The notes under the pieces: model-generated
Databases searched by the model: none
The model's input: only the letters and a program-made list of their open reading frames with translations
Told to the model about the DNA's origin: nothing
Position numbers and translations under genes: made by a program
DNA from: Eledone cirrhosa
Taxonomy: Eukaryota
DNA: 64,000 bases
Direction of reading: 5' to 3'
NCBI GenBank assembly: GCA_964016885.1
Contig: CAXHJY010001092.1
Location: 1 to 64,000, forward strand
Part shown: positions 6,855-54,086 of the stretch, in pieces
Numbering within the stretch: position 1 is the stretch's first letter
Layout: each line of letters starts with the position of its first letter

Positions 6855-6939
6855 GGTCTGATGAGCTTTTGATTCCAGAGTCGGGCTAGATTGATACAGA
6901 TCGAACCTTGAGCTGATCAATAGCGAAACGCGCGTCACA
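6855..6939 (+). ncRNA. Minimal type I hammerhead ribozyme motif (long stem II)
   Basis: GGT-CTGATGA-GCTTTTGATT..GATCAATAGC-GAAA-CGCGCG-TC-AC. A degraded inverted copy lies at about 6730-6815. Confidence 0.75.
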
Positions 6940-7531
6940 AATCAATAAAAGTAATGAACGCTTAACAAATCGTTCTTGTATTATTATTATTATTGTTGTC
7001 GGACGCCATGCTCTCCAGCATAGTTACGTCCCTTTACGATCTGAGTTCAAATCCCGCCGAGGTTGACTTTGCCTTTCATCCTTACGGGGTCGATAAAATA
7101 AAGTACCAGTAATGCACTGGGTAATTGCTGGCCTTGTGCCTAAAGTAGAAACAATTATTATTATTATTATTATTATTATATATATAACGAAGGAAGTCTG
7201 GTAAGGAACAATGAACCAGGTGGACCATAACGCACCAGAGTACTCGATACTTAGGGTAGTAGAGTGGGTGATAGGAAAAGAGTCGTGACCCCGACGGCTG
7301 AACTTATCAAGGGGTACAGTCCTATATGAACTGTACCTCTTGATAAGTTCAGCTAGATTACTACCGTCCTAACACTACTAGGTTAGTTCAGATCTTGCTG
7401 CCGAAACGACCGGAGCTCAGCAATCGGTGTTCTGACTCTTTTCATATATATATATATATATATATATAAAATATTAAAAAAATAATGAATAAAACAATGA
7501 AACAGTTCCTTATATTAAACAAAAAAAGTTC

Positions 7532-7668
7532 ATTATTTAACGATCGTTTCTAGGACATATATGTGTTAGAATTGGCATGCATATTCAACAGATCTATGTA
7601 CAAAATTATACAAACTATCAAATATAATATACATACCAACACATACATATGCCGTCTTCAGAAATAAT
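7532..7668 (-). ncRNA. Hammerhead motif with ~100-nt stem II
   Basis: On -: ATTATTT-CTGAAGA-CGGCATAT...ATATGTCCTA-GAAA-CGATCG-TT-AAATAAT. Stem I is perfect and stem III palindromic. Confidence 0.7.
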
Positions 7669-8744
7669 CAATTTTAATTTTAATTTTTTTTTATATTTTA
7701 TCTTGACTCTGTATTCCGTTTATCTTTCACCGAAAGTGATTTTTGAATGCATCTCTTCTTTCCATGATATCCGGATTACATTGAGTTCTTCATACGGATT
7801 GGACACTACCGTAAACTCTTGGTAGATTTATCTACATATATATATATATATATATAAACGTTTGAATATGTGTAATAAGGCCAAGACAATGCAGGTATGG
7901 ACATAGAAAAAAGGAATGCAATAGTGAAAGATATTGATGAGAATTCGTCTTTCACCTTGAATTTATTTAAATGTCCTTAATTTTCGAGATAATATCTCTT
8001 CTTCGGAGGGAAGTAAAGGTCTCAAACCAGCTAGTCAGCATGGCTTGACTAGAGATTTAAAGACGCTGGTTTGAGACCTTTACTTCCCTCCGAAGAAGAG
8101 ATATTATCTCGAAAATTAAGGACATTTAAATAAATTCAAGGTGAAAGACGAATTCTCATCAATATCTTTCACTATTGCATTCCTTTTTTCTATGTCCATA
8201 CCTGCATTGTCTTGGCCTTATTACACATATTCAAACGTTTATACCTCATTACACAATGCTTCAAGTGAACTATAACCTCCTCCTTTCTTATATATATATA
8301 TATATATATATATATATATATAACGAAGGAAATGTGGTAAGGAACCAGGTGGACCATAACGCACCAAAGTACTCAATACTTGGGGTAGTAGAGTGGGTAA
8401 TAGGAACCAGTAAGACCCCGACGGCTGAGCTCTAGCCGTTTCGACCTCTTAGCGGAAAAGTCTGGATACGGCGTGGTAGGGTCGGAAAGTGCTCTACTAC
8501 GGGAGTAGGAGCTAGATAACGAAGGAAATGTGGTAAGGAACCAGGTGGACCATAGGTCGAAACGGCTTGAGCTCAGCCGTCGGGGTCTTACTGGTTCCTA
8601 TATATATATATATATAACCAAATGTTAAACAAGGTTCATTGATTATTCAATGAATATAGTTTTACAATAGATTAAAAGCACTCTTGACTGCCAAGACTGG
8701 AATTGAGCCATCAGCACAGTTGAGGTATGTCATACATCAATTTA

Positions 8745-8814
8745 TGTATTTTATCTGATGAGGACGTACTGAAAAAACAGCACAGTACATCCGAAATATA
8801 TATAATAAAACATA
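8745..8814 (+). ncRNA. Minimal type I hammerhead ribozyme
   Basis: TTTTAT-CTGATGA-GGACGTACTG..CAGTACATCC-GAAA-TATATA-TA-ATAAAA. Confidence 0.85.
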
Positions 8815-8920
8815 TATTTTGATTATATGAATGTATCCATTTATTAATATTTTGAATAATATATACATATATATAAACAATATATTCACAAATGGAAATT
8901 ATATTTGTAAAACCATATTT

Positions 8921-8986
8921 ATTTTATTTTACATATTTCAAGGGCCACCAAGGCAAATTATGGTGCGCTTTCATCAGATAAAATAC
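8921..8986 (-). ncRNA. Hammerhead motif, family A (cleavage-site variant)
   Basis: On -: TATTTTAT-CTGATGA-AAGCGCACCA..TGGTGGCCCTT-GAAA-TATGTA-AA-ATAAAATA. U16.1 appears mutated. Confidence 0.65.
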
Positions 8987-9560
8987 AATACAGATTAGTT
9001 TTATAAATAAATATTGACATACCCTGAAAAAAGGCAACCTTAACGGTTGGAGCTTCCCGTCCAGCAACACGCGGCAGAGAGTTGTCTGGAATGTATTTGC
9101 CTGATGAACCATAGGCGATTCCATTTCAGTCAACAATTTCTTGGCGAAACAGATCTCTTTGGATTTGTACGCGTGTGTTATATGGTTATAGAGGTGCGAA
9201 TAGACATTTTAATTTATATTTTTAATTATTGTGTGTCTACCCCGCCTTCCATAGGTTAAAGAGTCCATACACTGGTGGCTCCCCTGTTTTATTGATCGCA
9301 CACACACACAGTCTCTCTCTCTCTCACTCTCTCTCTCTCTCTCTCTCTCTCGTGTGTTACCCTTTCAACATATTGTATTTTAATGAGCTCAGGATTCCTT
9401 TTCCTTTGAGCACATAATTTACAGGGAATAACGAGGGTCTATGGCTCCGTTAATTTATCGTGATATATATACATGTATATATATATATATATATATATAT
9501 ATATATATATATATATATATATATATATATAAGATCAAAAGATGGTTAAATGAGTTCCAT

Positions 9561-52025: not shown

Positions 52026-52176
52026 GTGTTTACACAAAGAATCGCAACTTTCGGTTATTCCAATCTTCAAAACTTGGTAAAAAGAATCCATTAGTTGTCT
52101 CAAATCATAGTCAATACTCCACAGACAAGCAAGACAAAGAGAATATCTTTTATGACTCCCTCATTGCCAATGTAAA
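52026..52176 (+). CDS. PRIMPOL: PrimPol exon 10 (VYTKNRNFRLFQSSKLGKKNPL...FYDSLIANV-K)
   Basis: Highly conserved GVYTxNRNFRLxxSSKxGK. TAG acceptor and AA|GTAAGT donor. Confidence 0.97.
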
Positions 52177-52319
52177 GTAAGTTCTATACCATACTTACAT
52201 ATTTCTTTCATTCTTTTACTGATTTCAGTTTTAAAAAATATGTACCCAGGTCACTGGTGACTAAGTGTGTCAGTGTTTGCCTTTCTCATGGATAACATCA
52301 TATCATCATCATCATTTTA

Positions 52320-52616
52320 TGTCCGCTCTTCCCTGCTTGCATGAGTGGGACACATCTTATTCAGCACAGCATCTCTCGACTTGTCACGGTCCTTTGTCAT
52401 CTCCACCGTGAGCTTCAGCGATCTGAGGTCTGTACTCACCACCTCCACCCATGTTTTTCCTGGTCTACCTCTACCACGTCTTCCTTCAACTGGCATTTCC
52501 TGGCACTTCTTCACCCATCGGTCATCCTCCATGTGCATCACATGTCCATACCAACGCAGTCTCCTCTCTCGCACACTACATTCTATCCCTCTCAGACACA
52601 GTTTCTCTCTCAACAC
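52320..52616 (-). mobile_element. RTE LINE 3' fragment (same family as 34810-35235)
   Basis: RERRLRWYGHVMHMEDDRWVKKC…GRRGRGRPGKTW. Confidence 0.85.
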
Positions 52617-53649
52617 ATATATAGTGTGTATTTTGGTGTTTTAGTGTCACGATAAAAAGCACCCAGTCCACTCTGTAAATGTGATTGGCATTAGGAAGTG
52701 CATTCAGCTGTAGAAACAAAGCTAGAAACAGTTCTAAATGAACAAGATACTGTCATCTGATCTGGCCTGACTCACAACAGGACAATTTGTCTAACCCATC
52801 CTAGCATGGAAAAATGGACGTTAAATGGTAATGGTATATGTATATATATCATTACCATTTAACGTTGGTATAACTGGCGCTATGCAGTTATGTCCCAAGA
52901 CAAAAGTGCCCAGGCCCCACTGTAAAGTGGTTGTGTCGGTGACACGACAAAAGTGCCCTGTCCATACTGTAAAGAACATCTAGCCCACACTGTAAAGTGA
53001 TTGTGTAGGTGTCATGGCAAAAAGCACCCAAATCACACTGTAAAGTGGACATGTAAAGGTCACGGCAAAAAGCACCCAGCACACACTGTAAATGTGGTTG
53101 GAATTAGGAAGGGCACTCAGCCGTAGAAAACCAGCCCCAAAACACCCAGCCCACACTGCAAAATGGACATGTAAAAGACACGGCAAAAAGCACCTAGTTC
53201 ACACTGTAAATGTGGTTGGCGTTAGGAAGGGTATCCAGCCATAGAAAACCAGCCAGAAATACCCCTATATGAGCGAGACACGGTCACCCGACCCAACTTG
53301 CCTCTGAATGGGACAAACCCATCTAACCCATGCTAGCGTGGAAGATAGACATTAAGCGGTGGTGATGATTATATATATAATTGACAAATACGTTATATAT
53401 TTAATCACATAATTATTAAATTATTATAATTAACCATATACATTAGTAGCTTATAATTTACCATAATACAATATATTTTTCATGTAACCAATATAATTAG
53501 ATTCACATTCTTAAAATATTAAAATATGTTAAAATATATATGTATAGTTACGTGATTTTTCTACGCTCATGTATGTCTATATATATATATATATATATAT
53601 GCCTATATATATATAGAAGTGGTAACACAACAGTTAGTTCACCATACCG

Positions 53650-53683
53650 AGAACAATTGTTTCACCTTAGCGGCTCTTCAGCT
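53650..53683 (-). ncRNA. Ultra-minimal hammerhead motif in the loop of a palindrome
   Basis: On -: AG-CTGAAGA-GCC-GCTAA-GGT-GAAA-CAATTG-TT-CT. Confidence 0.65.
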
Positions 53684-54024
53684 AATTGTTCTCGGTATGG
53701 TGAACTAACTGTTGTGTTACCACTTCTACCTAACTCGTCCCATGGACTGAGTGCTCTACCACTACGGATATTACCTTCCAGTATTCTACCTCCATATATA
53801 TATAGATGTGCATAATTCTATACTAATATTTCACCCTCTAACGACCGCCACACGACCAATATAAACACGCTATTGTTCAAAATTTATCTAGCGTCTATTT
53901 CTGTTTTAATGTATCCTTGTTAACTTATATCCCTTGTGACTTTGAATTTTTACCTTACTGCCGATAGCGGGCTTATACTAGTAAGTTTGCGCTAAGATAT
54001 GTCCATATCTTAACACCAAATATT

Positions 54025-54086
54025 ATATTTTATCTGATGAAAGCACACTAAAATTTAGTGTCCTTGAAATACGTATAATAAAATAA
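54025..54086 (+). ncRNA. Hammerhead ribozyme, family A (sense in PrimPol intron 10)
   Basis: TATTTTAT-CTGATGA-AAGCACACTA-AAATT-TAGTGTCCTT-GAAA-TACGTA-TA-ATAAAATA. Confidence 0.87.

What the first reader, a model, noticed from the sequence alone, without database searches (positions are those of the whole stretch)
6865..54065. Shared mismatch at base pair 4 of stem II across unrelated ribozyme families
Seen: stem II opens with about 3 pairs, then a mismatch, then a long helix. Examples: AAG-C/C-CUU (16651, 54041), AAA-C/C-UUU (40940-), AAA-C/U-UUU (9617-), GCU-C/C-AG(U/C) (41390, 39750-), UAU-C/C-AUU (33665), GGA-C/A-UCC (8762), GCU-U/U-AGC (6865). The 5' base is C in nearly all cases. The 53650 copy has exactly 3 bp plus a loop. 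Established: natural HHRs use stem I-stem II tertiary contacts for fast cleavage. Inference: this conserved internal mismatch is a docking site defining an extended-stem-II HHR subclass, and its conservation across divergent sequences implies selection.
Basis: partly seen in the sequence, partly recalled or inferred. Interest (0 to 1): 0.75.

Follow-up and report, generated by a model that had tools for sequence, protein, structure and literature searches.

The report
Fixed C·C mismatch in retrotransposon hammerheads
About 100,000 copies of a hammerhead (self-cutting) RNA motif, from one lineage of Penelope-type jumping genes in this animal genome, keep one unpaired cytosine at a fixed spot while the base pairs around it change freely, which likely marks a contact point that the RNA needs; neither cutting nor the contact has been tested.

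Summary
The mismatch is real and is the family state, not decay. In 1.2 Mb sampled blind, stem II pair 4 is formed in 1 of 36 copies of one hammerhead group (8-nt AU…AU palindrome, AUA cut site), while pairs 5-7 form in 35 of 36. Genome-wide about 99,700 copies carry C·H and 415 the repaired C-G. C10.4 holds in 24 of 25 families while its neighbours covary. 'Unrelated families' is overstated: 8 of the 9 examples belong to this one deeply diverged group, whose youngest member ends an active Hydra-type Penelope-like element (738-aa ORF, ribozymes 4 kb apart). The 6865 U·U belongs to another group in which the mismatch wanders. Selection on the C is likely. Docking on stem I is my leading but untested reading (0.4): the known docking motif is not met and no RNA partner covaries; protein recognition is the close rival. 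I found it in no paper searched. The scan noted the same feature before on other DNA of this genome (e1-8670794).

The parts
16638..16698 (+). Type I hammerhead, C·C group; C10.4 at 16654, C11.4 at 16677; predicted cut after 16692; element ends about 50 nt later in (TA)n
   Evidence: 53 near-identical matches listed of 634 candidates
16436..16496 (-). Inverted twin of the 16644 hammerhead (C·C at 16480/16457), the inverted 5'-truncated arrangement typical of Penelope-like elements
54028..54083 (+). Hammerhead, C·C at 54044/54062
8749..8810 (+). Hammerhead, C·A at 8765/8789
8922..8983 (-).
9564..9630 (-). Hammerhead, C·U at 9614/9585 (family state, 18 of 18 copies)
21425..21481 (-). Hammerhead copy with C3 mutated to U, C·C kept at 21465/21446 (not cited)
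33652..33713 (+). Hammerhead, U·U at pair 1 and C·C at 33668/33692; 3' end of a non-coding element
   Evidence: (27 of 27 copies C·C)
31959..33760 (+). About 1.8-kb non-coding element that carries the 33658 hammerhead; no Penelope ORF match
   Evidence: shared start at 31959 in several loci; no tblastn hit
39702..39763 (-). Hammerhead, C·C at 39747/39723
40895..40953 (-). Hammerhead, C·C at 40937/40916; AUU triplet in this copy
41377..41438 (+). Hammerhead, C·C at 41393/41417 (23 of 25 family copies)
6852..6942 (+). Hammerhead of a different, large-stem-II group; U·U at 6868/6921 (25 of 26 family copies); decayed inverted twin at about 6731-6829
53646..53687 (-). Short hammerhead: 3 bp plus 5-nt loop (G and A at position 4); not of the C·C group
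21806..21876 (+). Counter-example: long stem II paired at position 4 (A-U), 3x3 internal loop at 5-7
   Evidence: 33 of 34 copies
24494..24533 (+). Counter-example: minimal Penelope-type hammerhead, extra A, 4 bp plus tetraloop; a decayed relative lies at 15285-15324
34622..34730 (-). Counter-example: large stem II, G-C at position 4

Best explanation
These are type I hammerhead motifs at the 3' ends of Hydra-type Penelope-like retrotransposons and of non-coding elements, and one lineage of them has kept an unpaired C at stem II position 4, which likely serves as a base-specific contact site where the long stem II passes stem I and would help the ribozyme fold and cut. Shown: the structure (covariation), the family state of the mismatch, its restriction to one group, and the link of the youngest family to an intact 738-aa RT-endonuclease ORF with ribozymes in direct repeat 4 kb apart. 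Inferred from known Penelope hammerheads: cleavage after AUA as a dimer through the 8-nt palindrome. Inferred from conservation: selection on the master elements for C10.4 opposite C (or U, A) but never G (probability about 0.85). Inferred and untested: that the C·C acts as a one-by-one internal 'loop 2', one pair nearer the core than usual, contacting stem I around U1.7 (about 0.4; this step sets the confidence).
For: Pair 4 formed in 1 of 36 blind-sampled copies against 35 of 36 for pairs 5-7. Genome counts: 99,709 C·H, 415 C-G, 4,576 non-C at 10.4, of which 2,923 U; the listed exceptions are scattered over many family backgrounds, and the catalytic C3 decays to U in 1,541 copies, a similar order. 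On a tree of 25 families 10.4 changes once (a single-copy family) and 11.4 three times, never to G, against 3-11 changes at each of the other 14 stem II positions. The easiest change, C10.4 to U, leaves the hairpin energy almost unchanged (-8.1 against -8.3 kcal/mol) yet founded none of the 11 multi-copy families, so the base itself matters. U at 1.7 in 19 of 25 families, the highest U count of positions 1.5-1.20, recalls the docking U next to 1.6 (PMC2553840, passages). An internal loop 2 in an extended stem II and a C opposition at the foot of loop 2 both have precedent (PMC2632901, sections 24-25). A second group has U·U, U·C or C·C at the same position in several families. ORF link.
Against: The known docking motif is not met: 11.4 is A in only 2 of 25 families, the break comes after 3 bp rather than 4, and stem I has no conserved loop (unbroken length 2-12 bp). 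No invariant G or other partner lies within 30 nt upstream or 45 nt downstream, and no stem I column covaries convincingly with position 4. U1.7 changes five times on the tree, no fewer than its neighbours. Most other hammerheads here (44 of 51 copies) and in print (53 of 56 and 25 of 26 rows, read by eye) do without the mismatch. All families may descend from one ancestor, so this is one origin, not convergence. 14 of the 25 families are single copies; the tree rests on about 150 nt. No RNA data: the RNA-labelled runs laid gave no cover.
Confidence: 0.4

Rival explanations
1. The unpaired C is read by the element's own RT-endonuclease protein (or a host factor), as a binding mark or chaperone grip that lets coding and non-coding members of this lineage be copied or switches cleavage on.
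For: Base-specific, lineage-restricted, with no RNA partner found. Non-coding elements such as the 33658 family keep it although their flanks no longer align with the coding family. An anole Penelope hammerhead cuts only when the element's protein is added (PMC11167929, passages).
Against: In that paper the protein-binding region is placed at the reverse-transcription start downstream of the ribozyme, and copies here also end at two sites about 50 and 138 nt past the cut, so a separate recognition site may exist. No binding data.
Confidence: 0.3
2. The mismatch only weakens or kinks stem II, as a brake or hinge that keeps the 3' ribozyme uncut long enough to be copied.
For: Repair adds about 4 kcal/mol and raises the predicted pairing of pairs 2-3 from 0.43 to 0.74. 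Genomic copies carry the whole ribozyme and end beyond the cut site; no clean class of copies starting at the cut was seen. Pair 1 is also often unpaired (A·C in the most active family).
Against: Any mismatch would do, yet 10.4 is C in 24 of 25 families and U·C, the commonest mutant (2,923 copies), founded no multi-copy family seen.
Confidence: 0.15
3. Neutral inheritance: one ancestral mismatch that happened not to change.
For: One lineage; family representatives still share a median 54% identity including the core; few changes at 11.4, so the absence of G there is weak evidence alone.
Against: Every flanking pair was replaced repeatedly with compensation, flanks of the deep families no longer align (10 separate clusters), and C10.4 lies in a mutable CpG in 9 of 25 families.
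Confidence: 0.08

Closest known systems
Hammerheads of Hydra-clade Penelope-like elements (Craig et al. 2021, PMC8557442; passages and supplementary File S1/S2 sheets read)
   Same: Type I hammerhead near the 3' end, palindromic stem III, no extra nucleotide after A9, often a weak pair 1, (TA)n insertion; host protein has DKT, CxCX5C and an RW motif.
   Different: All 26 published rows start stem III with A-C and cut after GUH; 25 of 26 are paired at position 4 and none has an internal C·C (read by eye). Here stem III is an 8-nt AU…AU palindrome, the cut is after AUA, and the repeat unit is about 4 kb with a 1.5-kb 3' UTR.
Minimal hammerheads of metazoan Penelope-like elements (Cervera and de la Peña 2014, PMC4209133; parts 1-2 of 4 of the text and supplement parts 1-2 of 3 read)
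   Same: Long stem II, short stem I, palindromic stem III, predicted dimer, inverted pairs close together.
   Different: They keep G10.1-C11.1 and an extra base after A9; 53 of 56 representatives are paired at position 4 (one C·A in a sea urchin copy, one U·U in a fluke copy, one 3-bp stem; read by eye). Their search favoured unbroken helices, so it could have missed this form.
Tertiary-stabilised natural hammerheads: Schistosoma Sm-alpha, sTRSV, CChMVd (PMC2553840 passages; PMC2632901 abstract and sections 24-25)
   Same: A break in stem II near the place where it meets stem I; CChMVd(-) uses an internal loop; Sm-alpha has a C opposition at the foot of loop 2; U at 1.7 is common.
   Different: Those need a 3' A in loop 2 and a loop in stem I; here the break is a single C·C one pair lower and stem I has no conserved loop.
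Animal non-LTR retrozymes (PMC7229834 passages; bioRxiv 10.64898/2026.07.22.740005 part 1 of 5)
   Same: Non-coding, hammerhead-bearing derivatives of Penelope-like elements.
   Different: Defined as short direct tandem repeats with canonical type I hammerheads; same-family neighbours here are mostly inverted pairs (65 of 78, overlapping loci counted twice).

Membership tests
Type I hammerhead ribozyme | Core CUGANGA / GAAA / UH around three helices, open stem I | tested here: met
   82 cells with changes on both sides against 28 in shuffles
Type I hammerhead ribozyme | Self-cleavage at the predicted site | not testable with these tools
   no assay; only assembled contigs were on offer
Type I hammerhead ribozyme | Match to an Rfam hammerhead model | tested here: not met
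   no Rfam hit at gathering score in the window; none among the 150 best of 289 rows shown at E<=1
Penelope-type dimeric hammerhead | Short palindromic stem III and a second copy on the same transcript | tested here: met
   8-nt palindromes; two copies in direct repeat 4.0 kb apart around one ORF; the dimer itself is inferred, and cofolding preferred a stem II-swapped dimer
Penelope-type minimal hammerhead (Cervera 2014 consensus) | G10.1-C11.1 and an extra nucleotide after A9 | tested here: not met
   pair 1 is G-C in 5 of 25 families; no extra base
Hydra clade of Penelope-like elements | DKT motif, CxCX5C linker, C-terminal GIY-YIG-like domain with CxxC and CxH instead of CCHH | tested here: met
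   738-aa ORF in L361, motifs as listed; Pfam gave no hit for the partial ORFs
Hydra clade of Penelope-like elements | N-terminal RWK motif | tested here: inconclusive
   RWR in L361, RWK in the related ORF L297
Hydra clade of Penelope-like elements | Insertion into (TA)n | tested here: met
Hydra clade of Penelope-like elements | Generally shorter than 3 kb | tested here: not met
   repeat unit 4.0 kb; the paper gives this as a tendency
Hydra clade of Penelope-like elements | Placement in the RT tree with reference elements | not tested
Loop-loop docking motif of natural hammerheads | 3' A of loop 2 | tested here: not met
   A at 11.4 in 2 of 25 families; 11.5 is a paired pyrimidine
Loop-loop docking motif of natural hammerheads | U next to position 1.6 | tested here: inconclusive
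   19 of 25 families, often able to pair within stem I; five changes on the tree
Loop-loop docking motif of natural hammerheads | Conserved loop in stem I with an extrahelical pyrimidine | tested here: not met
   unbroken stem I of 2-12 bp, no conserved flank position

The most novel reading that the evidence does not exclude
A new, minimal way to activate or gate a hammerhead: a single C·C mismatch inside a long stem II replaces loop 2 and docks on stem I or on the retrotransposon's own protein, giving a one-base handle on what Penelope ribozymes do in transposition, testable in an active element with at least 150 copies identical over the 147 residues searched.
Probability: 0.35. Interest if true: 0.72.

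Novelty: new variant of a known kind. Interest (0 to 1): 0.5.

Why it matters
Penelope-type hammerheads are described as lacking tertiary contacts and cutting poorly, and their role in transposition is an open question. A base outside the catalytic core that is held as firmly as the core across 25 families points to a contact nobody has described, and the lineage has a young, intact element in which one substitution tests it. It also shows that searches demanding unbroken stems can miss a ribozyme class with about 100,000 copies in one genome; Rfam finds none in this window.

Tried and rejected
Decay of copies: rejected by family states and genome counts. A first apparent link to the L023/L297 Hydra-type ORF was a chance neighbour: only 1 of 30 loci of that ORF had that ribozyme behind it, and the U3-A8-like hit there is antisense ORF sequence, so the ribozyme of that lineage remains unidentified here. 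Search for an invariant or covarying RNA partner of C10.4: none. Search for amplified families with a dead core, which would separate catalysis from protein recognition: only 8 single copies with one core change, all still C·C. Copies starting at the cut site: none clear. RNA evidence: the four runs and the RNA-labelled run laid nothing; no raw reads were offered. Rfam: microRNA-like hits on microsatellites only. Rows dropped before the family counts: 4 of 29 clusters (L286, L220, L191 failed the stem II filter; L138-114 was a double count); three of the four had A at 10.4, and L191 looks like a decayed true member. Loci L331-L360 were left out of family counts because they were selected for non-C. 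Lünse et al. 2017 (PMC5785218) and Martick and Scott 2006 (PMC4447102) were not held and were not read; the first surveys many short-stem-III Penelope hammerheads (recalled) and could show this variant.
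Full report
Setting. The window is the start of contig C1119 of a 3.0-Gb animal genome, AT-rich and full of microsatellites. Rfam reports nothing at gathering score.

Observation. All nine cited stem II mismatches and the 3-bp hairpin near 53650 are present. They are type I hammerhead motifs: stem I, CUGANGA, stem II, GAA, a palindromic stem III, UH, stem I. A descriptor that does not look at position 4 found 118 strict hits in 120 evenly spaced 10-kb stretches against 0 after local shuffling. 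The hits fall into two kinds. In the blind sample pair 4 is formed in 1 of 36 such copies (C·C 25, C·U 6, C·A 3, A·C 1, G-C 1), pairs 2 and 3 in 34 and 33, pairs 5-7 in 35 each, pair 1 in only 24. The other hammerheads are paired at position 4 in 44 of 51 copies, or 11 of 15 with room for a long stem.

Family state, not decay. The 16644 family has near-identical copies genome-wide and its cluster is C·C in 49 of 49 distinct copies; the 33658 family in 27 of 27; the 41383 family in 23 of 25; the 9624 family is C·U in 18 of 18 (these copies were partly fetched by similarity to the window copy). Whole-genome exact-pattern counts for the group (they leave out the 33658-type palindrome and non-A cut sites): 99,709 with C10.4, purine, pyrimidine and H11.4 (control 1); 415 with C-G (control 9); 4,576 with another base at 10.4 (control 98), 2,923 of them U. 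For scale, 1,541 copies have the catalytic C3 changed to U. The first 100 listed exceptions of each search are spread over many family backgrounds, many in CpG context, as expected of mutation after insertion; a small amplified U·C subfamily is not excluded.

Selection. Clustering 171 distinct copies at 80% identity gave 29 clusters, 25 after dropping three that fail stem II pairing and one double count. Position 4 is C·C in 21, C·A in 2, C·U in 1 and G-C in one single copy; the 11 multi-copy families are 9 C·C, 1 C·A, 1 C·U. Parsimony counts one change at 10.4 and three at 11.4 against 3-11 at the other 14 stem II positions (short alignment, rough tree). In 20 aligned copies all seven other stem II pairs show changes on both sides while pair 4 is never formed, and the consensus fold leaves it open unprompted. 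Contigs of a run with a different organism label show compensating changes at pairs 2 and 6 and none at either C (X24, 17 contigs, kind of run unknown).

Related, not unrelated. Representatives share a median 54% identity including the core. Flanks are weakly alike within the group (mean z 0.6 against 0.0 to other hammerheads) but split into ten clusters. So the feature is best read as inherited once and kept through deep divergence. The 6865 copy belongs to a separate large-stem-II group: its U·U is the family state (25 of 26) and several relatives have U·C or C·C there, but others are paired at 4 with the break further up.

Host element. One blind stretch showed a Hydra-type ORF followed 1.5 kb later by a C·C hammerhead. 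Its endonuclease region has at least 150 identical matches. Of 20 stretches fetched behind such matches 19 held the ribozyme, 18 with C·C and one with a base lost from the C run; L361 holds a full 738-aa ORF (RWR, DKT, YRDD, CxCX5C, YVG, CxxC, CxH) between two ribozymes 4.0 kb apart. These motifs match the Hydra clade of Craig et al., apart from length. This link is shown for the youngest family; single loci suggest it for three close relatives (L307, L061, L038); for the 33658 and 41383 families no ORF was found, and the former is a 1.8-kb non-coding element. Copies end about 50 or 138 nt beyond the cut site, like the two reverse-transcription starts described for an anole element.

Mechanism. 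A pure weakening of stem II does not explain why the base is C: U·C costs the same energy and arises most often, yet founded no multi-copy family seen. A base-specific contact is therefore likely. The known docking motif needs a 3' A in loop 2 and a loop in stem I; neither is here, and no invariant G or covarying column was found. For an RNA contact speak the position, next to where natural stems II end, the precedent of an internal loop 2 and of a C opposition at the foot of loop 2, U1.7 in 19 of 25 families and pyrimidine mismatches at the same place in a second group. For a protein contact speak the restriction to one lineage and the protein-assisted cleavage reported for another Penelope element. 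I put RNA contact at 0.4, protein at 0.3, brake at 0.15, neutral at 0.08.

Literature. Eight searches of the held library (among them hammerhead with 'C-C mismatch' and 'stem II', and with Penelope, Hydra, octopus or cephalopod) listed no paper that describes this variant; I saw listings for most hits and passages for those cited. In the two published tables read by eye, position 4 is paired in 53 of 56 and 25 of 26 rows; both came from descriptor searches that favour unbroken stems. Lünse et al. 2017 could not be read, and figures are not held.

Verdict. Real, selected, lineage-specific and apparently undescribed; a new variant of a known ribozyme in a known element clade, with the mechanism open. 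Interest 0.5.

Noticed in passing
L361:272 and 4272: The most active family has A·C at pair 1, so only two standard pairs (both G-C) lie between the core and the C·C; weak pair 1 (U·U, A·A, C·A) is common in many families of this genome.
   Followed up: partly
window 6852-6942; L031, L069, L098, L160, L178, L195, L217, L243, L345: A group of hammerheads with a 57-63-nt stem II domain sharing a conserved inner sequence, 8-nt AC…GU palindromes and often C instead of U at core position 4; one member lies behind a Hydra-type ORF (L031).
   Followed up: partly
L215, L218, L220, L228, L238 downstream of the L080-type ORF: A second Penelope-type lineage has a hammerhead-like core with a long single-stranded stretch after GAAA and no nearby UH/stem I; it may be the rearranged hammerhead that earlier notes describe.
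   Followed up: no
window 14785-15285 (-): Fragment of a Penelope-type endonuclease region (74% to the L080 ORF), the only such coding remnant found in the window.
   Followed up: no
window 53610-53730: The 53681 hammerhead sits at the centre of a near-perfect inverted repeat formed by an inverted, truncated copy.
   Followed up: no
window 40510-40580 and 9101-9160: Decayed hammerhead-like copies: 40510 has G12 changed and C at 10.4; 9101 lacks a clear stem III and stem I.
   Followed up: partly
3' flanks of many families (e.g. window 33710-33720): An AATAAA-like word often lies 5-20 nt after the cut site.
   Followed up: no
L145:474-973: Short head-to-tail run of C·C hammerheads in which one copy ends in the AU palindrome and the next begins there.
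   Followed up: no
window 45770-46631, 47413-47900, 5108-5840: Tandem arrays of 123, 48 and 16 bp with 91-97% matches; unrelated to the finding.
   Followed up: no
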